This document shows, piece after piece, positions 19,671-57,455 of a DNA stretch of 64,000 bases. The notes beneath the pieces were generated by a model. That model worked only from the letters and a program-made list of their open reading frames with translations. It made no database searches and was not told where the DNA came from. The translations under genes were made by a program, and so were the position numbers. The stretch is taken from the sequence record NC_104190.1. One strand, given 5' to 3'. The stretch's first letter is position 1, and every line of letters begins with the position of its first letter. Source of the DNA: Escherichia phage IME178.

Positions 19671-19746
19671 TGGCTGGGATGCCACGGATCGAACGTGGAA
19701 CCTTCGGAGTCAGAGGCCGACGATCTGCCAATTGATCTACATCCCA
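19671..19746 (-). tRNA. tRNA-Gln (anticodon CUG)
   Basis: Acceptor TGGGATG/CATCCCA, loop CTCTGAC, 3-prime end GCCA. Confidence 0.6.
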
Positions 19747-19758
19747 ATAATTTTTATT

Positions 19759-19953
19759 CTACGGAAAAATTGTTGTTGGCTCAGATTCTTCCAAACGTTT
19801 GCCTTCATGATCTACTCGAATAACTCCGCATCCCTCGCAAATCACAACAGCACCGTAGCCTTCTTTAACTTCAGCTTCTGTAATCAAACCAGAAAGATCA
19901 CCAGTATCTCTGCCCCACATATCAATGGAGCATTGTTTGCAGAAATCAGCCAT
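19759..19953 (-). CDS. Cys-rich hypothetical protein (64 aa)
   Basis: CxxC pairs (CKQC, CEGC). Confidence 0.4.
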   Translation of the reverse strand: MADFCKQCSIDMWGRDTGDLSGLITEAEVKEGYGAVVICEGCGVIRVDHEGKRLEESEPTTIFP

Positions 19954-19977
19954 ATTTATTTCCTATTTAAGTTAATT

Positions 19978-20054
19978 TGGGGTGGCTAGTGGAATTCGAA
20001 TCCACATAGGCCTGATTCACAATCAGGATCATTAACCAATTATGATATAGCCAC
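19978..20054 (-). tRNA. tRNA-His (anticodon GUG)
   Basis: Acceptor GTGGCTA/TAGCCAC, anticodon arm CCTGA-TTGTGAA-TCAGG, encoded CCA. Confidence 0.7.
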
Positions 20055-20420
20055 AATTGAAAACTCGCAGGGTTAGCGAAACCTTCCTCAATTAGCATGT
20101 TCTAGAATACTAATCAAGTTATCTCCTATTGCGCGCAGCTCAAGACGAGTACGAATTTTCAATTGTGGCGGCTCTCAGAAACTCTTCTACTCTAGTCTTA
20201 GCAGCTTACTCCCGAACGCATGTCGGGGAAGTCTTACCAAGAGCATCAAATAGCACCGTTACACTTTGAGCCATAGATGTATCAAGAAGCAGAAGGACTT
20301 GAACCTTCACGAGATAGACCATTTATCTCAGCCGCTTTATGAGGTATGTTGCAGGGAGTGGATGTTCCCTATAAACCTTTTAGGCAGCCCCGTCTACCGA
20401 TTCCGGCATACTTCAAGATT

Positions 20421-24547: not shown

Positions 24548-24826
24548 TTAAGAATTTGATGCCTTTTTTTTTTTTTTTTTCTTCTTATACTTCCACGTTA
24601 ATGGATTCTGTCGATTGTGAACGCTTGAGATCTTTGTCTCGTCAAAGTTCTTCAATACCATGTAATCACAAGATAATTGTTCTAATGGAATGTGATCACC
24701 GTCAAAAGCGTATACATAAGGCTGTTGACTAGCACTATAATGATAGACTTTGTTAATTCTACGTTTCAGCAACTTATCCGCGCAGTAAATAAAGAAGTTT
24801 TCAGGATGCATCAGCAGCTCCCTCAA
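24548..24826 (-). CDS. hypothetical protein with C-terminal poly-Lys encoded by an A17 tract
   Basis: ORF runs through a 17-nt homopolymer giving KYKKKKKKKK before the stop. Confidence 0.4.
   Translation of the reverse strand: MRELLMHPENFFIYCADKLLKRRINKVYHYSASQQPYVYAFDGDHIPLEQLSCDYMVLKNFDETKISSVHNRQNPLTWKYKKKKKKKKASNS
24564..24580. repeat. 17-nt T/A homopolymer
   Basis: Uninterrupted T17 on the plus strand inside the 3-prime end of a minus-strand ORF. Confidence 0.9.
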
Positions 24827-25071: not shown

Positions 25072-25159
25072 TGGTGGGCGTTAATGGAGTCGAACCACTC
25101 GAGTCGCAATGACCAGGGATTTACAATCCCCTCCGCTACCACTTACGGAATAAACGCCC
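25072..25159 (-). tRNA. tRNA-Tyr (anticodon GUA), type II
   Basis: Acceptor GGGCGTT/AACGCCC, anticodon arm GGGGA-TTGTAAA-TCCCT, long variable arm, CCA. Confidence 0.7.
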
Positions 25160-25289: not shown

Positions 25290-25565
25290 TTAGTCGAACT
25301 TAGGAGTGACAGTTAAGGAGAATGGAAGTTCGAAAACTTCTTCACCCTCATCACTAACAGTAATTACACGGCCTTTAAGTTCAGACATTGAAATATCAAT
25401 ATCAGCTTTTGCATCTGGAGCCATTCCAGCTTCAACACATTTAGCTTTAACTTCCGGCAGAAGTTCTACATCGTAGAAATAAAGCCATTCAATCTCACCT
25501 TCCCAGCCTTCCCAGGATTTACAGATTGCACTTTCAATACCAGTTGCTATAACACGATTTTGCAT
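25290..25565 (-). CDS. hypothetical acidic protein (91 aa)
   Basis: ORF downstream of promoter motif. Confidence 0.45.
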   Translation of the reverse strand: MQNRVIATGIESAICKSWEGWEGEIEWLYFYDVELLPEVKAKCVEAGMAPDAKADIDISMSELKGRVITVSDEGEEVFELPFSLTVTPKFD

Positions 25566-25655: not shown

Positions 25656-25862
25656 CTAAACTCCAGATTCTTCAGCCAAGTCTAGACTAATAAGAGATAT
25701 AGCCATAATTGCTGCTGCGTGCTCTTTTTCTCCAGTCTCTTTAGCTAGAGTTATAATATCAAGAATTTGCTTATGAAAGTCTGCAACCTCTTGAGTCATA
25801 CCTGCTTCAGCAATCATGCCTTTAAGCATGAAACGTTGTGCGGTAATTTCAGGATTAGCCAT
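25656..25862 (-). CDS. hypothetical protein (68 aa)
   Basis: Small ORF. Confidence 0.4.
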   Translation of the reverse strand: MANPEITAQRFMLKGMIAEAGMTQEVADFHKQILDIITLAKETGEKEHAAAIMAISLISLDLAEESGV

Positions 25863-26619: not shown

Positions 26620-26697
26620 TGGTGGCTCCCCGAGGATTCGAACCTACGTACCTTCCGGTTATGAGCCGGGTGCTCATACCATATGAGCTTGAGAACC
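26620..26697 (-). tRNA. tRNA with CAU anticodon (Met, fMet or Ile2)
   Basis: D-stem GCTC/GAGC, anticodon arm CCGG-CTCATAA-CCGG, CCA; T-stem weak. Confidence 0.5.
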
Positions 26698-26703
26698 AAA
26701 ATC

Positions 26704-26792
26704 TGGCGGAAGAAGTGGGAATCGAACCCACAAGGCTATATTTCAAACCGACAGATTAGCAATCTGCTGCAATACCGTTATGCTATTCTTCC
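26704..26792 (-). tRNA. tRNA-Ser (anticodon GCU), type II
   Basis: Acceptor GGAAGAA/TTCTTCC, loop TTGCTAA, long variable arm, CCA. Confidence 0.65.
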
Positions 26793-26813
26793 GAATTTAT
26801 AAGATATATTATA

Positions 26814-27332
26814 TTAGAAATTTAGCTTCATAGCAAGAAAATTTTTCAAGTTTTCGGTAGACATCTCATCCACATCTACGGGAGAAACAAAGCCGTTTAA
26901 TTTTCTAGCAAATTTTTCACCATCGGGATCATTGTCACCAATAGCTATCAATTTAAAAGGTAGTAATTTCAGTTGCTTTAATAATGCTTTTCCCGGAGAA
27001 GAACCCAACATTGCTAGGGCGGGATAACCAGCGTTATGTAACGCAACTGCCTTAAATACAGATTCAGCAATCAATACTACTTTTTCATCTCCATTGAGAG
27101 TTTCTAGCCCCCATACACACTGTGTAGTAGAATGGGTAAAATATTTAGCTTCAAATGGGCACTTACCCTGCCTTTTGGGAGCAGAGGGATTATAAGTCTG
27201 ATAGCCTCTCAACATCCCAGAGAAGTCATACAACGGGACTGTTAGCCATCCTTCCGGACTTAACCAGCAATGATATTTATCTGTATCAAATCCCCTAGAT
27301 AAGAGGTGCTGTATTAGCTCATCAACATTCAT
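26814..27332 (-). CDS. Toprim-domain protein
   Basis: Start moved to ATG 27332 (AGGAGA RBS); conserved Glu in VVLIAES and DxD in IAIGDNDPDG. Confidence 0.55.
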   Translation of the reverse strand: MNVDELIQHLLSRGFDTDKYHCWLSPEGWLTVPLYDFSGMLRGYQTYNPSAPKRQGKCPFEAKYFTHSTTQCVWGLETLNGDEKVVLIAESVFKAVALHNAGYPALAMLGSSPGKALLKQLKLLPFKLIAIGDNDPDGEKFARKLNGFVSPVDVDEMSTENLKNFLAMKLNF

Positions 27333-27371
27333 ATTTGATCTCCTAGTTAGATTTACAAATACATTATATAG

Positions 27372-27406
27372 AAAAGCCCTGCGCTCTCCAGGGAACGCAG
27401 GGCTCA
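27372..27406 (-). terminator. rho-independent terminator
   Basis: Hairpin GCCCTGCG/CGCAGGGC followed by a T-run on the minus strand. Confidence 0.55.
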
Positions 27407-27428
27407 CTTCAGATGTTACGTGCGGATA

Positions 27429-28376
27429 TTATTTATTACGCATATCCATGATCATTTGACCATCGTAGCCAGTACCTACCACAGTCTGAGGCACACCACC
27501 TTGATACTTCTGAGCACGGATCATTTCAACTTCCAGTTGCTTCCAGCGAATCATCTCAGGAGTAATGGTACGTTGCAATGCGGCGTTAGCTTCAGCTTCT
27601 TTCTTAGCTGCGTACAATTTAGCATCTGCGTCACGTTCATTAGCAATAGCTTGGTTGTTGCGAGCTTCACGATCTGCTTCTGCTTGTTTAACTTTTTGCT
27701 GTGCTTCCTGTTCAACACGAGCTAATTCAGCTTTAGCAGCATTAACTTGCTCTTCACGAACTTTGGTATTCTGTACCTGTTCCATGATTACCGGTGGCAA
27801 AGTAATATCCTGAAGGAACACCTGCTTAACTGTGTAACCATATGGGCGTGCATACTCTTCAACTTCCTGTTGAATTGCAGTTTGCAATTGAGCCTGAATT
27901 TTAGCATCAAACAAATCTTGTGCTTTAGGTACAGACTTACCAAACTCACGAATAGTAGACAGTAATTTTTCAGTTACATATTTGTCTAACGCTTGATCCT
28001 GAGTACCTGCATTAATACGGTTAATCGGTGCTTTAGAACCATCAAACTGCAACATAACAGTCAGGTCAACAGTGGATTTAAACTTATCCTGACTAGGAAC
28101 CTGAAGTTTATCTAATTTCAGAGCAATATCTTTAGTACTAAAAGTATCAAAAGAAGCAAAAGGATTTACAATATGAAAGCCCGGCAATACAGGGTTAGGA
28201 TCAACTTTACCCAAGAAAGTCTGGGTCTTAACAGTACCGTCTTGAACAACGGTATAGGAGTTAAGAGCTAGAACTAAACCTGCTAAACCAACTACAGCAC
28301 CAATACCCCAACGTTTAATAGTGCGAATTACTTTTTGCTCAGAAGTCAATTCTTTCATATTTTTAGTATTAAACAT
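27429..28376 (-). CDS. SPFH/band-7 (prohibitin/HflC-like) membrane protein
   Basis: N-terminal transmembrane anchor, SPFH-like core, long Ala/Glu/Gln-rich coiled coil. Confidence 0.65.
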   Translation of the reverse strand: MFNTKNMKELTSEQKVIRTIKRWGIGAVVGLAGLVLALNSYTVVQDGTVKTQTFLGKVDPNPVLPGFHIVNPFASFDTFSTKDIALKLDKLQVPSQDKFKSTVDLTVMLQFDGSKAPINRINAGTQDQALDKYVTEKLLSTIREFGKSVPKAQDLFDAKIQAQLQTAIQQEVEEYARPYGYTVKQVFLQDITLPPVIMEQVQNTKVREEQVNAAKAELARVEQEAQQKVKQAEADREARNNQAIANERDADAKLYAAKKEAEANAALQRTITPEMIRWKQLEVEMIRAQKYQGGVPQTVVGTGYDGQMIMDMRNK

Positions 28377-28410: not shown

Positions 28411-28485
28411 TGGCCGAGGTGACAGGATTCGAACCTGCATAAAGGAATTTAGAAGACTCCTGCCTCTCCCTTAGACTACACCCCG
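28411..28485 (-). tRNA. tRNA-Arg (anticodon UCU)
   Basis: T-arm GCAGG-TTCGAAT-CCTGT, anticodon arm AGGAGT-CTTCTAA-ATTCCT, CCA. Confidence 0.65.
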
Positions 28486-36547: not shown

Positions 36548-37689
36548 AAGAAATCTCCAAATTCATTACCCAGATCTTTCAGAGTATCAGTAGAGGTTTC
36601 GGTGACTTGACCTACACGATATGCTGCACCAATCTGGATTTCTTGTGGAGCAGGCTGTAAAGAAGTGGTATCCAACCAGTTCATGATCCACGGAATAGGG
36701 TTTTTGGTGATTACTGGTAAATGACTAGGCCATTCTACACCAATGTGCATAAATGCATTACGCCCCACAAAGTACAGATATTCTTCTAGAAGTTCTGCAT
36801 TCAAGCCAATCAGACTACGACCTTTGAAAATGAAATGACCCCATTCAATTTCAGTTTTCAAAGTTTTCAGGAGCTGTGCTGGTGCTTTAGCCACTGCTTC
36901 ATCTACCAGATCTTTGTCAAATTGCTGAAACATAATCTGGATGATTGCTTTGGACATCTGAGTGTGCAGAGCTTCATCTTTAGCGATTAATTGCAGATTT
37001 TTAGCAATACCTTGCAGAATATCGTTCTCTGCTAATGCAAAGGTACATGCAAAGGATGCGTAAAACTGCATTGCTTCCAGACCATAGATCGCAAAGTAAG
37101 CGTCTAATAGTTTAGCCTGAGTTTCACGTTTAACTTCAGGGAACTCAGTTTCTGGGTATGTATTGTCGCCACGATGATCGCGTACTGCGATGAAATACTG
37201 ACCTAACTGGTACAGTTCATCGAATAGTTCAACAGAATCAGCGATACGTGCGAATGCTTCTTGGTTTTTGGTTACAGAATCAATAAATTCTGCTGGATCA
37301 GTCAGCACATTACGAATAATATTGCTATAAGCACGACTATGTAGGTCTTCAAAATAGCTCCACTGTTTGAGCATACCTTCCAATTCTGGACGACTTACAA
37401 GCGGCATAATAGCCGCTTCAGGGGCACGACTGATAAAGGAATCAGTTTGAGTTTGCCATGCTAAGTTCAGGAGTGTAATTTCCTGAATTTCTCGTGGGAG
37501 ATTAGGCCATTGTTTCTTATCTGCTTCCAGACTGATTTCAGTTTCAGTCCAAAATTGAGAGCGTTGCAGAAGTGCCAGACGTTCTAGTTCTGGGTGTGCT
37601 ACACGTACGTAATCTGCGATACCGAGAGAATCTCCCAGGAAAAGGTCAGCGTTAGTATGATCCCAATTCAGGTTTAGTAAAGTAGTCAT
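36544..37689 (-). CDS. nrdB: ribonucleotide reductase class Ia small subunit
   Basis: Ferritin-like di-iron radical subunit pattern; adjacent to nrdA. Confidence 0.85.
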   Translation of the reverse strand: MTTLLNLNWDHTNADLFLGDSLGIADYVRVAHPELERLALLQRSQFWTETEISLEADKKQWPNLPREIQEITLLNLAWQTQTDSFISRAPEAAIMPLVSRPELEGMLKQWSYFEDLHSRAYSNIIRNVLTDPAEFIDSVTKNQEAFARIADSVELFDELYQLGQYFIAVRDHRGDNTYPETEFPEVKRETQAKLLDAYFAIYGLEAMQFYASFACTFALAENDILQGIAKNLQLIAKDEALHTQMSKAIIQIMFQQFDKDLVDEAVAKAPAQLLKTLKTEIEWGHFIFKGRSLIGLNAELLEEYLYFVGRNAFMHIGVEWPSHLPVITKNPIPWIMNWLDTTSLQPAPQEIQIGAAYRVGQVTETSTDTLKDLGNEFGDFL

Positions 37690-37764
37690 TGATTTTCCTC
37701 TTTCTCACTATTTCAGGAATATTATAGCAAATCTGGTAGCGATTAGCAAGTAAAATTTCAAAGA

Positions 37765-55045: not shown

Positions 55046-56518
55046 ATGACCTTGTTTAACGTGCAAGCTGTAGTGTTGAAGATGCTTCTAGCTTCTGAAC
55101 AGAAGCAAATAGCATTGGAAACATTCTCAAAACTGCATAAAGATCATTTTAATGACGCTTTCTCCTCAATTTACCAAGCCGTCCAGAATTATTATAAAAA
55201 ATATAACACAATGCCGTCCATTGACGCACTGATGCTTGAAGCTAATAGGAACGCCCGCCTTTCTCAAGCTCTAGTCGTCTTAGCTAACACTCAAATTCCA
55301 GAAGTGAGCATGGAACAGGCACTTGAAGTCCTAGAGGCTGAATATACACAGGATTTATTCCTGAAGCTTCTAGAAACAGACGTGCTTCAAGATTTAACAA
55401 TGCTGGATCAGGGAGAAATTCTCAACCGAGTTGCCTCCCTTCACTTAAAATTAGAAGAGAAAGTAACGAATACTGGAAAAGTATTCAACGCAGATAACAT
55501 GCGTATTTTCCAGAGAGAAGAAGATACCAAACTGAACCTAATCGCTCTTGGTATTTGTAATGAGTTTGACGCTCAAATTGGTTTAGCTCGCACAGAAACG
55601 TTACTGCTTGGTGGTTGGCGTGGTACTGGTAAATCCATTATCTGTTCAAACATACAGGTTCAGCAATATTTGAATGGAGATATTGCTCCATACTTCTCAA
55701 TTGAGATGAAAGAACATGAAGTATTTAGACGTAATCTAGCCATGTTAGCTGGTGTATCCGCACTAGCAATGCGTAATAATACTCTAGAAGGTGCAGCTCT
55801 GCTGAGATTAGCCAGAACTAGAGCTAGAATGTTTAATGGCGGTGAAGAGCTTTTCGATAACTTCGTTAAACAGTACACAATGGCTAAGATGAGTGATTTC
55901 TACGATATGGAGAGTAAACTAATAGAAGGGTATGAACTACATACTCCTATGATTATCGTTTATGACCCTGAACTGTCCATTACAACAGTTGATGTAGAAT
56001 TAAATAAATTAGTTGCTAGATATGGTGATAAAGTTACAGTAGCTTTATTGGACTATATTAACCAAACCCGACTTCCAGACTCTAAAACCATTGATATGTA
56101 TGACTGGAAAGAACAGATGGTTGTTAGCTCGTCTTTCAAATCTATCTGCCAGAAACATAACGTGGCTGGCGTAGCTCCTTACCAGATCGATCAAGATGGT
56201 AGAACACGTATGTCAAAGGGTATTCTTGATTCCGCAGACATGGCTGCTAATCTTAATGCTGCAAAAGCTGATAATGGTCAAGGTGCTATTATGTTTGACT
56301 TCGTTAAGACTCGTTCTTCTGATAGCGTGAAGTTTATGCCTAAAATGAACTGGGAAACCTTGCGGATGGATAACACTACCAACCTAGCGATGGAAGATAT
56401 ATCTCAAATGGAAGCTGAGTTCGTTATCCCTATTGAGAAGGATAAGCCGGCTCAACCTAAACGTGCTAAGAAAGACAAAACCGAAAATTCAACAGGTGAA
56501 CAGGCCAGCGATATATGA
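55046..56518 (+). CDS. DnaB-like replicative helicase
   Basis: RecA-fold Walker A GGWRGTGKS; longest-ORF start sits inside the terminator hairpin so start moved downstream (55046-55082 uncertain). Confidence 0.65.
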   Translation: MTLFNVQAVVLKMLLASEQKQIALETFSKLHKDHFNDAFSSIYQAVQNYYKKYNTMPSIDALMLEANRNARLSQALVVLANTQIPEVSMEQALEVLEAEYTQDLFLKLLETDVLQDLTMLDQGEILNRVASLHLKLEEKVTNTGKVFNADNMRIFQREEDTKLNLIALGICNEFDAQIGLARTETLLLGGWRGTGKSIICSNIQVQQYLNGDIAPYFSIEMKEHEVFRRNLAMLAGVSALAMRNNTLEGAALLRLARTRARMFNGGEELFDNFVKQYTMAKMSDFYDMESKLIEGYELHTPMIIVYDPELSITTVDVELNKLVARYGDKVTVALLDYINQTRLPDSKTIDMYDWKEQMVVSSSFKSICQKHNVAGVAPYQIDQDGRTRMSKGILDSADMAANLNAAKADNGQGAIMFDFVKTRSSDSVKFMPKMNWETLRMDNTTNLAMEDISQMEAEFVIPIEKDKPAQPKRAKKDKTENSTGEQASDI

Positions 56519-57294
56519 GTAGAATAACAGAACTACTTGATCTGAAAGGCATTGAATATAAAGACACAGGTGGGGACATCCTCATCTGTTGTCTCAATCC
56601 AGATCATGACGATAAACACCCAAGTTTGCGTATTGATCCTGAAACAGGTATTATGCACTGCTTGAGTTGTGGCTTCGGTAAAGGTATACCGAGCATTTAC
56701 CATTATTTTAATGAGACTCAGTACCGACAGTCCCCAAGGCTATCGCAAGTACGTAAAAAGATTTCAGAGATTAGGAATGGGTCAACGAATCTTGCAATTC
56801 CTGAATCTGCTTACCTTTTCGAAGGTGATTTCCGAGGTATAAGTTCTAAGACCTTGAAGAAATATTTTGCTTTCCAACACCAAGCAGACTGGGAAGGCAG
56901 AATTGTATTCCCAATCACAGATGCTGTTGGACGCAATATCCTATTTTTGGGTCGTTCTATAAACAGTTCTGCCCCTCCTAAATACTTAGTAAAACCAAAA
57001 CAAGTTTCACCACCAATTTTTCCTGTACGATATAATACCCCAATTCTTATTCTAGTTGAAGGTATCTTTGATATGCTGAATCTAGAGGATAATGGTATAG
57101 ACTATGCTTCTTGTTGCTTCGGTACACATCAGTTTACTTCAGATAACATTGCAGATAAGTTTAGTCCGTATATTATTGCTGGTGTTAAAGTTGTTGTTAT
57201 CTTACTAGATAATGATGCTTCTGGTAATAAAGCTGCACAAGCACTGGCTAAGCTAATTCGTACAAAAAACGCGTTTAACACCTGTAGTTGCTAA
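56515..57294 (+). CDS. DnaG-like DNA primase (zinc-binding plus TOPRIM), truncated by frameshift
   Basis: Zn ribbon CCLNPDH...HCLSCGFG, TOPRIM ILVEGIFD and LLDNDASG; ORF stops just after an A6 run. Confidence 0.75.
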   Translation: MSRITELLDLKGIEYKDTGGDILICCLNPDHDDKHPSLRIDPETGIMHCLSCGFGKGIPSIYHYFNETQYRQSPRLSQVRKKISEIRNGSTNLAIPESAYLFEGDFRGISSKTLKKYFAFQHQADWEGRIVFPITDAVGRNILFLGRSINSSAPPKYLVKPKQVSPPIFPVRYNTPILILVEGIFDMLNLEDNGIDYASCCFGTHQFTSDNIADKFSPYIIAGVKVVVILLDNDASGNKAAQALAKLIRTKNAFNTCSC

Positions 57295-57406
57295 CTTTCT
57301 TCTGCCTGAAGGTAAAGACCCAGGTGACTTAAGTAAAGAAGAAATTGATATGTTAGCAAAACGTATTGAAATTTTAGTTGCTGAATCGCTTAAAGATTTG
57401 GTATAA
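57257..57406 (+). CDS. DNA primase C-terminal fragment (+1 frame)
   Basis: +1 frame after the A6 run encodes the canonical TOPRIM tail LPEGKDPGDL. Confidence 0.6.
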   Translation, partial: FVQKTRLTPVVANFLLPEGKDPGDLSKEEIDMLAKRIEILVAESLKDLV

Positions 57407-57455
57407 TAGTCCTAAATAACTGAGGAGCTACTATGGAATATGTATATATATTTAT

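What the first reader, a model, noticed from the sequence alone, without database searches (positions are those of the whole stretch)
26814..28376. SPFH/band-7 membrane protein and a small Toprim-domain protein embedded in the tRNA cluster
Two mid-sized proteins with their own terminator sit between tRNA genes. A roughly 170-aa stand-alone Toprim protein resembles RNase M5-type or OLD-type nuclease domains and could process the polycistronic tRNA precursors; the SPFH protein has a membrane anchor and long coiled coil.
Basis: inference. Interest (0 to 1): 0.5.

Follow-up and report, generated by a model that had tools for sequence, protein, structure and literature searches.

The report
Known anti-retron gene plus phage SPFH
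The small Toprim gene in this T5-like phage's tRNA cluster is the already reported anti-retron gene rad (ORF75), a zinc-finger-less copy of the primase catalytic core and not a tRNA-processing nuclease. The neighbouring SPFH gene is a separate, uncharacterised membrane-cage protein common in large phages.

Summary
Both ORFs exist at the stated coordinates, on the minus strand of a T5-like phage (Tequintavirus, about 96% identical to AKFV33/PK7), between tRNA-Arg and tRNA-Ser.

**Toprim protein (26814-27332, 172 aa).** It is 96% identical to phiSP15 ORF75 and 93% to T5 ORF071. This is the published Rad (retron anti-defense) gene. It lets T5-like phages escape retrons Eco2 and Eco7, and in a preprint it lowers retron ncRNA and msDNA. 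Its mechanism is still unresolved.

- It is under strong purifying selection (dN/dS about 0.06), yet dispensable. It is deleted in BF23, T5n and SP15m, and about 270 phage records carry a ≥80%-identical copy against about 430 with a ≥90%-identical SPFH.

**SPFH protein (27429-28376, 315 aa).** It is a canonical cage-type SPFH subunit with no cysteine, so the "lipoprotein" label is wrong. It has its own terminator and also occurs in T4-like phages that lack Rad.

**The pair.** It is not a unit: 18 of 26 T5-like loci have a 2-kb insert between the two genes.

Verdict: ordinary and already known. The tRNA-processing idea is not supported.

The parts
28411..28485 (-). tRNA-Arg (TCT), upstream boundary of the segment
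   Evidence: ARAGORN; Rfam tRNA 49.3 bits
27429..28376 (-). SPFH/band-7 membrane protein, 315 aa (homologue of T5.080, the band-7 protein AAX12012.1 of T5 record AY587007, and of phiSP15 E0157_078). N-terminal TM helix, SPFH domain, 76-residue helix, C-terminal strands.
   Evidence: Pfam Band_7 E 3e-17. AF2 model secondary structure. Foldseek top matches are erlin, prohibitin, HflK/C, stomatin and QmcA. 98% identical to the phiSP15 protein and contains zero Cys.
27374..27405 (-). Intrinsic terminator after the SPFH gene (13-bp G+C-rich stem, loop of 6, U tract)
   Evidence: Terminator scan. RNA fold -25.9 kcal/mol, z = -3.96. AKFV33 annotates a terminator at the same place.
27363..27390 (-). 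Weak sigma-70-like promoter match (TGGAGA-16-TATAAT) overlapping the terminator, just upstream of rad. Function uncertain.
   Evidence: Consensus scan, 10 of 12 matches. The number of such sites in the region is not above the shuffled expectation.
26814..27332 (-). rad (retron anti-defense; homologue of phiSP15 ORF75, T5 ORF071/T5.076). 172 aa, the DnaG-type primase RNA-polymerase core without a zinc finger.
26808..26836 (-). T5-type early promoter match (TTGCTA-17-TATAAT) overlapping the 3' end of rad, in front of tRNA-Ser
   Evidence: Consensus scan. Annotated as a T5-consensus promoter at the same place in AKFV33.
26704..26792 (-). tRNA-Ser (GCT), downstream boundary
   Evidence: ARAGORN; Rfam 60.5 bits
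26623..26697 (-). Further tRNA (annotated tRNA-Met in AKFV33), missed by ARAGORN
   Evidence: Rfam tRNA 40.3 bits, E 2e-6; AKFV33 annotation

Best explanation
The segment holds two independent early accessory genes of a T5-like phage, lying in its tRNA-rich, deletable 'anti-defence' region.

**The 172-aa Toprim protein** is the orthologue of Rad (phiSP15 ORF75, T5 ORF071). Experiments show that this gene lets T5-like phages plate on hosts carrying retrons Eco2 (Ec67) and Eco7 (Ec78). A preprint extends this to Ec83, Ec48 and Se72.

Structurally it is the catalytic core of a DnaG-type primase: the N-terminal subdomain plus the Toprim subdomain. The Toprim acidic residues are kept (E90, D133/D135, D153/D155). 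It has no zinc-binding domain, no C-terminal subdomain and no helicase-binding domain.

The most likely mechanism is inferred, not shown. Rad would use this metal-dependent active site on the one component all retrons share, the msr-msd ncRNA or the msDNA made from it. It would cut or otherwise destroy that nucleic acid so the retron cannot be assembled or fire.

**The 315-aa SPFH protein** is a separate gene with its own terminator. It most likely forms a membrane-anchored SPFH cage like HflK/C, QmcA or prohibitin in the infected cell's inner membrane. Its client and its role in infection are unknown.
For: **Identity (shown)**
- 165 of 172 residues identical to phiSP15 E0157_075. That gene sits at the same place, after the SPFH gene and before tRNA-Ser/tRNA-Met.
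- 93% identical to the T5 AY587007 CDS between ORF070 and ORF072. The BF23 paper names this CDS as ORF071 = Rad.

**Function (from the literature)**
- ORF75 is the determinant that rescues deletion mutants on retron Eco2 and Eco7 (Nat Commun 2024, PMC11555353).
- The preprint reports reduced msDNA and msr-msd RNA but unchanged RT and effector transcripts. It also reports loss of function for R13E, P33T, I88T, D135H and E156H.
- All five residues are present at exactly those numbers in the window protein. R13 and D135 are kept in at least 90% of 76 aligned family representatives, and P33 and E156 are invariant in the nine closest relatives.

**Fold and family (shown)**
- AF2 pLDDT 96.
- The family profile hits only DnaG in the PDB.
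- Family conservation: E90 99%, D133 89%, D135 93%, D153 90%, Y64 100%.

**Selection and dispensability**
- Median dN/dS is 0.06 over 27 T5-like copies, 2 of them disrupted.
- The gene is absent from BF23, T5n and SP15m.

**SPFH**.

**Independence of the two genes**
- A terminator lies between them.
- A 2-kb opposite-strand insert separates them in T5, SP15 and 18 of 26 loci.
- The SPFH gene occurs in T4-like phages without Rad.
Against: - The mechanism rests on one 2023 preprint. [quoted passage not shown]
- No in vitro nuclease activity has been reported in the papers I could read.
- For retrons whose msDNA-RT complex holds a toxin in check (Se72/Sen2, Ec48), destroying the ncRNA or msDNA would be expected to release the toxin rather than disarm it. 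This is from my own knowledge of those systems. Simple degradation may therefore not be the whole story.
- The protein keeps the primase 'KY' motif (K63-Y64) and a conserved R13. I believe these match NTP-contacting residues of DnaG, but that is from memory. If so, a nucleotidyl-transfer activity is as compatible with the sequence as hydrolysis.
- Nothing is known about the function of the SPFH protein.
Confidence: 0.8

Rival explanations
1. One reading: the small Toprim protein is an RNase M5-like or OLD-like nuclease that processes the phage's polycistronic tRNA precursors.
For: - The gene lies between tRNA genes on the same strand.
- Toprim domains can be RNases.
- Elsewhere, Rad-family genes directly follow or are fused to CCA-adding tRNA nucleotidyltransferase.
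- 22 of 73 viral loci have same-strand tRNAs within 10 kb.
Against: - BF23 has lost the gene in a ~4-kb, five-gene deletion, so a T5-like phage does without it.
- About 270 phage records carry a Rad copy at least 80% identical, against about 430 with a ≥90%-identical SPFH.
- 2 of 27 copies are disrupted.
- The tested phenotype is anti-retron.
- Jerseyviruses carry a homologue beside a helicase; the annotated example, phage 5sent1, has no tRNA feature in its record.
- Only 3 of 73 loci have a tRNA within 1 kb.
Confidence: 0.04
2. The protein is an auxiliary or back-up primase: a minimal DnaG-type RNA polymerase that synthesises primers without a zinc finger, possibly with a partner protein.
For: - It has the full primase RNA-polymerase-core fold with the Toprim acidic residues and the KY motif.
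- In Jerseyviruses the homologue overlaps the stop codon of an SNF2-type helicase gene in the replication module.
- One family member carries an N-terminal DUF3268 zinc-finger domain.
- The canonical primase ORF in this window is frameshifted.
Against: - There is no zinc-binding domain, which DnaG and T7-type primases need for template recognition (established knowledge).
- The arginine of the DnaG 'GGR' motif is a conserved tyrosine here (Y47).
- The phage has its own complete DnaG-type primase next to a DnaB-like helicase and the polymerase.
- The frameshift in that primase is one extra A not seen in any relative, so it is probably a sequencing error.
- The gene is dispensable and lies in the accessory region.
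- Jerseyvirus also has a 728-aa AAA_25 helicase that could carry the replicative primase.
Confidence: 0.07
3. Rad-family proteins work on tRNA-like RNAs in general, for example in tRNA end repair or as a counter to tRNA-targeting defences. On this view retron inhibition is one consequence of a broader RNA-directed activity.
For: - There is a conserved CCA-adding-enzyme/Rad gene pair in 22 Vibrio and Shewanella phage records, and a single-ORF fusion in the metagenomic protein P0051.
- There is a HAD fusion.
- AAA_33 kinase, metallophosphoesterase and RNA ligase genes are among the neighbours in a minority of viral loci.
- The gene lies in the tRNA-rich region of T5-likes.
Against: - These are neighbourhoods of accessory-gene islands, where many unrelated functions sit together.
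- The neighbours are heterogeneous. The most frequent one is in 17 of 73 loci and is a GNAT-like protein.
- Other fusions are to DNA- or protein-modifying domains: Mom, Arr-like ART, GNAT.
- There is no experimental link to tRNA.
Confidence: 0.12
4. The SPFH protein and Rad form a functional two-gene module.
For: They are adjacent on the same strand in this window and in 7 of the 26 T5-like viral loci examined.
Against: - A strong terminator lies between them.
- 18 of 26 loci, T5 and SP15 have a 2-kb opposite-strand insert between them.
- BF23 lost ORF071-075 (Rad among them); the band-7 gene, the next CDS in the T5 record, is not on that list.
- The SPFH gene is in 721 phage records, including T4-like phages where it sits by rI with its own terminator and no Rad.
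- Rad alone, expressed from a plasmid, is sufficient for retron escape.
Confidence: 0.03

Closest known systems
Rad (retron anti-defense) = phiSP15 ORF75 = T5 ORF071 (AY587007) / T5.076
   Same: 96% and 93% amino-acid identity over the full length. Same position at the edge of the tRNA-rich region, before tRNA-Ser/tRNA-Met. All five residues whose mutation weakens Rad (R13, P33, I88, D135, E156) are present.
   Different: In this window and in AKFV33-like phages the 2-kb opposite-strand cassette (T5 ORF072-074) between rad and the SPFH gene is missing, so the two genes abut. phiSP15 annotates a 17-codon longer N-terminus.
DnaG-type primase RNA-polymerase domain (E. coli, Aquifex, B. subtilis and M. 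tuberculosis DnaG; T7 gp4 primase; Twinkle; T4 gp61)
   Different: No zinc-binding domain, no C-terminal helical subdomain and no helicase-binding domain. The 'GGR' arginine is a conserved Tyr, and the EGxxD aspartate is Lys in the T5 lineage. It is not in the replication module. It is dispensable. No significant pairwise similarity to the phage's own primase.
RNase M5 (Toprim ribonuclease that matures 5S rRNA)
   Different: RNase M5 lacks the DnaG N-terminal subdomain that makes up residues 1-80 here. There is no sequence-profile match. The RNase M5 C-terminal domain is absent.
OLD-family / PARIS AriB / Gabija GajA Toprim nucleases
   Same: The Toprim catalytic fold class only.
Cage-forming SPFH proteins (HflK/C, QmcA, prohibitin, erlin, stomatin, flotillin)
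   Same: For the 315-aa protein: the same order of N-terminal TM helix, SPFH domain, very long helix and C-terminal strand. Foldseek E 1e-10 to 1e-14. phmmer to QmcA gives E 2.5e-6.
   Different: It belongs to a phage-restricted clade in T5-like, T4-like, Aeromonas, Proteus and Morganella phages. No NfeD-like or FtsH-like partner gene lies beside it. Function untested.

Membership tests
Rad / ORF75 anti-retron protein of T5-like phages | Orthology to phiSP15 ORF75 / T5 ORF071 (high identity, same locus) | tested here: met
   96% identity to E0157_075 and 93% to the T5 copy. Same flanking genes.
Rad / ORF75 anti-retron protein of T5-like phages | Residues whose mutation weakens Rad (R13, P33, I88, D135, E156) | tested here: met
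   All are present at those positions counted from the ATG at 27332.
Rad / ORF75 anti-retron protein of T5-like phages | Rescues phage plating on retron Eco2/Eco7 hosts; lowers retron ncRNA and msDNA | not testable with these tools
   Reported for the 96%-identical protein. Not measured for this sequence.
DnaG-type DNA primase | CHC2 zinc-binding domain at the N-terminus | tested here: not met
   No Zn_ribbon_DnaG hit. The protein starts at the RNA-polymerase core (PHROG 849 positions 143-337 of 435). The phage's own primase has the domain.
DnaG-type DNA primase | RNA-polymerase core fold (N-terminal subdomain plus Toprim) | tested here: met
DnaG-type DNA primase | Toprim acidic residues (Glu; DxD; third D-x-D) | tested here: met
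   E90, D133/D135, D153/D155, conserved 89-99% in the family except D155. The second acidic residue of EGxxD is Lys in the T5 lineage (D in 70 and K in 48 of 134 sequences).
DnaG-type DNA primase | Basic residue of the 'GGR' motif and the C-terminal subdomain / helicase-binding domain | tested here: not met
   Tyr47 (97% conserved) aligns with the Arg of M. tuberculosis DnaG 'GFGARR'. The protein ends about 20 residues after the third acidic motif.
DnaG-type DNA primase | Primer synthesis on ssDNA | not testable with these tools
   Needs a biochemical assay.
RNase M5 | Toprim domain followed by the RNase M5 C-terminal domain; sequence membership | tested here: not met
OLD-family nuclease (OLD, GajA, AriB) | ABC ATPase domain or partner plus OLD-type Toprim | tested here: not met
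SPFH / band-7 superfamily (315-aa protein) | SPFH domain | tested here: met
   Pfam Band_7 63.6 bits against a cut-off of 23.6. Foldseek probability 1.0 to erlin, prohibitin, HflK/C and stomatin.
SPFH / band-7 superfamily (315-aa protein) | Membrane anchor, long helix after the SPFH domain, and C-terminal strand, as in cage-forming members | tested here: met
   Model: helix 12-38 (hydrophobic WGIGAVVGLAGLVLAL), helix 195-270, strands 300-310.
SPFH / band-7 superfamily (315-aa protein) | Assembly into a multimeric membrane cage | not testable with these tools
   Only a monomer was modelled.
Bacterial lipoprotein (label carried by PHROG 200 and RefSeq) | Lipobox with an invariant cysteine after the signal peptide | tested here: not met
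   The protein contains no cysteine at all.

The most novel reading that the evidence does not exclude
Rad belongs to a very large family of stand-alone primase-core proteins: 956 clusters at 50% identity, mostly 165-190 aa, and every source context I examined was a phage or viral contig. On this reading the family has been converted from primer synthesis to an RNA-directed counter-defence activity. The recurring linkage to CCA-adding enzyme (gene pair and fusion), to tRNA clusters and to RNA-repair-type neighbours would mean the true substrates are tRNA-like or structured small RNAs, with retron ncRNA as one case. The enzyme might act by nucleotidyl transfer rather than by simple cleavage. 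The neighbouring phage SPFH cage could be a second, membrane-level counter-defence.
Probability: 0.15. Interest if true: 0.65.

Novelty: already known. Interest (0 to 1): 0.25.

Why it matters
For the scan, this is a negative result. The 'Toprim nuclease for tRNA processing' is a gene already shown to be an anti-retron factor, and the SPFH gene is a common, already annotated phage accessory gene.

Two things remain of interest to specialists.

1. **Rad's mechanism is unpublished.** This analysis shows that Rad is a complete DnaG primase catalytic core with its metal site intact but without a zinc finger. That narrows the mechanistic options and points to specific mutants and substrates.
2. **No function is known for the phage SPFH clade.** It is shared at about 83% identity between T5-like and T4-like phages.

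Two database labels should also be corrected: 'DNA primase' for Rad and 'lipoprotein' for the SPFH protein.

Tried and rejected
- **Single-sequence phmmer of Rad against the PDB** gave only chance xylanase hits. A family profile was needed.
- **The word-indexed protein search** found only 8 relatives. The exhaustive profile search found 956 clusters.
- **The search for related loci with the 76-sequence alignment** failed for lack of a conserved stretch. A 16-sequence subclade worked, so the neighbourhood statistics describe one subclade plus the T5-likes, not the whole family.
- **One literature query was badly posed** and returned radiology papers. One was rejected for a short term.
- **The context of the Glu-less variant P0007** was uninformative.
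- **An early miscount.** My notebook checkpoint says 27 of 60 loci have tRNAs within 10 kb. The script gives 22 of 73, and that is the figure used here.
- **A recent duplicate of the phage's own primase** was considered and rejected. There is no significant pairwise similarity.
- **An SPFH-Rad operon** was considered and rejected. There is a terminator between the genes and the linkage is variable.
- **A link to the weak PADLOC hit** (DnaG-like domain of a defence RT, E 7e-5) was considered. It is too weak and too short to build on.
- **No functional paper on the T5 SPFH protein** was found in two searches.
Full report
**What the window is.** The 2.2 kb around the finding is 96% identical to Tequintavirus genomes such as AKFV33, PK7 and NBEco002, and matches 455 phage records, nearly all Salmonella or Escherichia T5-like phages. 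Twenty-two tRNA genes lie on the minus strand between 17986 and 28485. This is the tRNA-rich early region of a T5-like phage.

**Checking the observation.** Both ORFs exist on the minus strand. The SPFH ORF is 27429-28376 (315 aa), with an AAGGAA ribosome-binding site before the ATG, and scores 63.6 bits on Pfam Band_7.

The Toprim ORF ends at 26814. The mechanical ORF list extends it to a GTG at 27407. However, the ATG at 27332 has an AGGAG 7 nt upstream, and the extension would run through a terminator hairpin.

- Pfam Toprim_2 is just above its cut-off (22.6 against 22.1 bits).
- PHROG 849 'DNA primase' matches at E 2.6e-59, but only to profile positions 143-337 of 435.

The genes are flanked by tRNA-Arg (28411-28485) and tRNA-Ser (26704-26792). 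Rfam finds one more tRNA at 26623-26697.

The strong intrinsic terminator (27405-27374; 13-bp stem, z = -4) lies between the two genes, after the SPFH gene. It does not follow the pair.

**What the Toprim protein is, by sequence and fold.**

- A single-sequence search of the PDB found nothing.
- An exhaustive profile search of 1.84 billion representative proteins found 956 clusters at E ≤ 0.001 and 390 at E ≤ 1e-10. Almost all are stand-alone proteins of 165-190 aa.
- A profile of 76 members hits only DnaG primases in the PDB: E. coli, Aquifex, M. tuberculosis and S. aureus, at E 8e-6 to 8e-4. Small Toprim proteins follow at E > 0.1, and neither RNase M5 nor OLD appears.
- The AlphaFold model is very confident (pLDDT 96.1).

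The protein is therefore the N-terminal subdomain plus the Toprim subdomain of a DnaG-type primase. It lacks the zinc-binding domain and everything C-terminal to the third acidic motif.

Family conservation:

| Residue | Conservation |
|---|---|
| E90 | 99% |
| D133 | 89% |
| D135 | 93% |
| D153 | 90% |
| G43, Y64, G75 | 100% |
| R13 | 97% |
| Y47 | 97% |

The alignment to M. tuberculosis DnaG puts K63-Y64 on the primase 'KY' motif. It puts Y47 on the arginine of the 'GGR' motif.

The phage's own primase is elsewhere, at 56515 onward, next to a DnaB-like helicase and the polymerase. It has a zinc ribbon, DNAG_N and Toprim domains and shows no significant pairwise similarity to the small protein. 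The small protein is thus not a recent duplicate or fragment of it.

[quoted passage not shown] It also states that BF23 has lost ORF071-075 in a 4-kb deletion.

In AY587007 the CDS labelled 'DNA primase' between ORF070 and ORF072 (37201-37719) is the 93%-identical homologue of the window protein.

The source preprint (Azam et al. 2023, doi 10.1101/2023.03.15.532788) maps the activity to ORF75 of phage phiSP15. In the phiSP15 record, E0157_075 is the gene after tRNA-Ser/tRNA-Met, and it is 165/172 identical to the window protein.

The preprint reports the following:

- Rad rescues deletion mutants on retrons Ec67, Ec78 and Ec83, and rescues lambda vir on Ec48 and Se72.
- Homologues from other phages also work.
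- msDNA and msr-msd RNA fall, while RT and effector transcripts do not.
- R13E, P33T, I88T, D135H and E156H weaken the protein.

Those five residues are present at exactly those numbers in the window protein.

The peer-reviewed version (Nat Commun 2024, PMC11555353) keeps only the genetic result: ORF75 lets the phage evade Eco2 and Eco7. It says the mechanism could not be determined. I found no later paper that resolves it.

**Testing the tRNA-processing idea.** Several results count against it.

- The fold is primase-core, not RNase M5 or OLD.
- BF23 has lost the gene in its ~4-kb, five-gene deletion.
- About 270 phage records carry a ≥80%-identical Rad, against about 430 with a ≥90%-identical SPFH.
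- 2 of 27 T5-like copies are disrupted. The rest are under strong purifying selection, with median dN/dS 0.06. That pattern fits a useful but conditionally needed accessory gene.
- Homologues at about 46% identity sit in Jerseyvirus replication modules. There they overlap the stop codon of an SNF2-type, intein-containing helicase gene, and the annotated example (phage 5sent1) has no tRNA feature in its record.

Some context does point towards RNA.

- In 22 Vibrio and Shewanella phage records a Rad-family gene directly follows the CCA-adding tRNA nucleotidyltransferase. In one metagenomic protein (P0051) the two are a single ORF.
- In 73 loci of one viral subclade, 22 have tRNAs within 10 kb. 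Of those tRNAs, 95 of 96 are on the same strand and 90 of 96 are upstream. Only 3 loci have one within 1 kb, and many of these loci are related to each other.
- Neighbours are heterogeneous: a GNAT-like protein in 17 loci, a GIY-YIG endonuclease in 12, an AAA_33 kinase in 8, a metallophosphoesterase in 8, and RNA ligase in 4.
- Other fusions join the domain to Arr-like ADP-ribosyltransferase, Mom, GNAT, HAD or a DUF3268 zinc finger.

I read this as residence in accessory and anti-defence islands, with a possible but unproven link to tRNA-like RNAs.

**The SPFH protein.** The model (pLDDT 77) has these elements:

- a TM helix at 12-38;
- the SPFH domain at 41-192;
- a 76-residue helix at 195-270 and a second helix at 273-290;
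- short C-terminal strands.

This full-length arrangement matches cage-forming SPFH proteins (erlin, prohibitin, HflK/C, stomatin, QmcA) at Foldseek E 1e-10 to 1e-14. QmcA is the best sequence match in the PDB.

The protein has no cysteine, so the 'lipoprotein' label from PHROG 200 and RefSeq cannot be right.

Homologues occur in 721 phage records:

- T5-like phages;
- T4-like Klebsiella, Citrobacter and Cronobacter phages at about 83% identity;
- Aeromonas phages at about 60% identity.

All named members of the family in the protein database are from phages or phage-sized contigs. In the T4-like phage CfP1 the gene sits beside rI in the tk region, again with its own terminator and no tRNA nearby. 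I found no functional study.

**Are the two genes a unit?** No.

- A terminator separates them.
- T5 and phiSP15 have a 2-kb opposite-strand cassette between them.
- 18 of 26 T5-like viral loci have the same cassette.
- BF23's deletion is listed as ORF071-075, which does not include the band-7 gene, the next CDS in the T5 record.
- Rad alone, from a plasmid, is sufficient for retron escape.

**Mechanism: what is shown and what is inferred.**

- Shown by others: the orthologue confers escape from several retrons, and in a preprint it lowers their ncRNA and msDNA.
- Shown here: it is a DnaG primase core with an intact metal site, and it lacks the zinc finger and the GGR arginine.
- Inferred: it uses that site on the retron ncRNA or msDNA.

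Two cautions apply. For retrons in which the msDNA restrains a toxin, plain degradation should trigger rather than disarm them (my own knowledge of those systems). And retention of the KY motif and R13 leaves nucleotidyl transfer open as an alternative chemistry.

**Verdict.** The interpretation as a tRNA-precursor nuclease of the RNase M5 or OLD kind is not supported.

Noticed in passing
window 56515-57407 (+), A-run at about 57263-57270: The phage's canonical DnaG-type primase ORF stops early at 57294. The conserved 'LPEGKDPGD' acidic motif and the C-terminus continue in the +1 frame. The window has one base more than every close relative over this stretch (241 against 240 nt), and T5 reads through. 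This is probably a homopolymer sequencing error, but a real frameshift is not excluded.
   Followed up: partly
window 26623-26697 (-): A tRNA found by the Rfam model (40.3 bits, E 2e-6) but not by ARAGORN. It corresponds to the tRNA-Met annotated in AKFV33 and phiSP15 next to tRNA-Ser.
   Followed up: partly
window 25072-25159, 25290-25565, 25656-25862 (-): The window also carries the other published retron countermeasures of this region. These are tRNA-Tyr (counters the Eco7 PtuAB effector) and homologues of phiSP15 ORF71 (96% identical) and ORF72 (74% identical), which the preprint says counter retron Ec83. The preprint is inconsistent about whether the pair is ORF71/72 or ORF72/73.
   Followed up: partly
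L006 3595-5429 (Vibrio phage F99); protein P0051: A Rad-family gene directly follows, and overlaps, the CCA-adding tRNA nucleotidyltransferase (PolyA_pol + HD) in 22 Vibrio and Shewanella phage records. In one metagenomic protein the two are fused into a single 582-aa ORF.
   Followed up: partly
proteins P0038, P0055, P0075, P0081, P0127, P0128: The Rad-type primase core is fused in single ORFs to Arr-like ADP-ribosyltransferase, GNAT, Mom, HAD phosphatase, cytidylyltransferase or a DUF3268 zinc-finger domain. Some of these may be polyvalent proteins or gene-call fusions.
   Followed up: no
L004 3620-6513 (Salmonella phage 5sent1, Jerseyvirus): A 46%-identical Rad homologue overlaps the stop codon of an SNF2-type helicase gene that carries an intein (Hint + LAGLIDADG), inside the replication module of a 43-kb phage whose record lists no tRNA feature.
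   Followed up: partly
window 27429-28376; L118 4917-5831 (Citrobacter phage CfP1): The SPFH protein is about 83% identical between T5-like siphoviruses and T4-like myoviruses, which implies recent exchange between unrelated phage families. The 'lipoprotein' name propagated in RefSeq and PHROG 200 is wrong, because the protein has no cysteine.
   Followed up: partly
L003 about 19700-20230 (T5 AY587007 69700-70230): T5 has extra sequence of about 500 nt between the helicase and primase genes. It has a homing-endonuclease-like reading frame and is absent from this window.
   Followed up: no
window 24548-24826 (-): A 92-aa ORF ends in a run of nine lysines (KKKKKKKKK), that is, a long A/T homopolymer tract in the DNA, just beside tRNA-Phe.
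   Followed up: no
window 26814-27332: The only PADLOC match of Rad is a weak one (E 7e-5, 62 residues) to the DnaG-like domain of a defence-associated reverse transcriptase model (RTasDnaG-like). Rad also inhibits retron Eco2, whose RT is fused to a Toprim domain.
   Followed up: no
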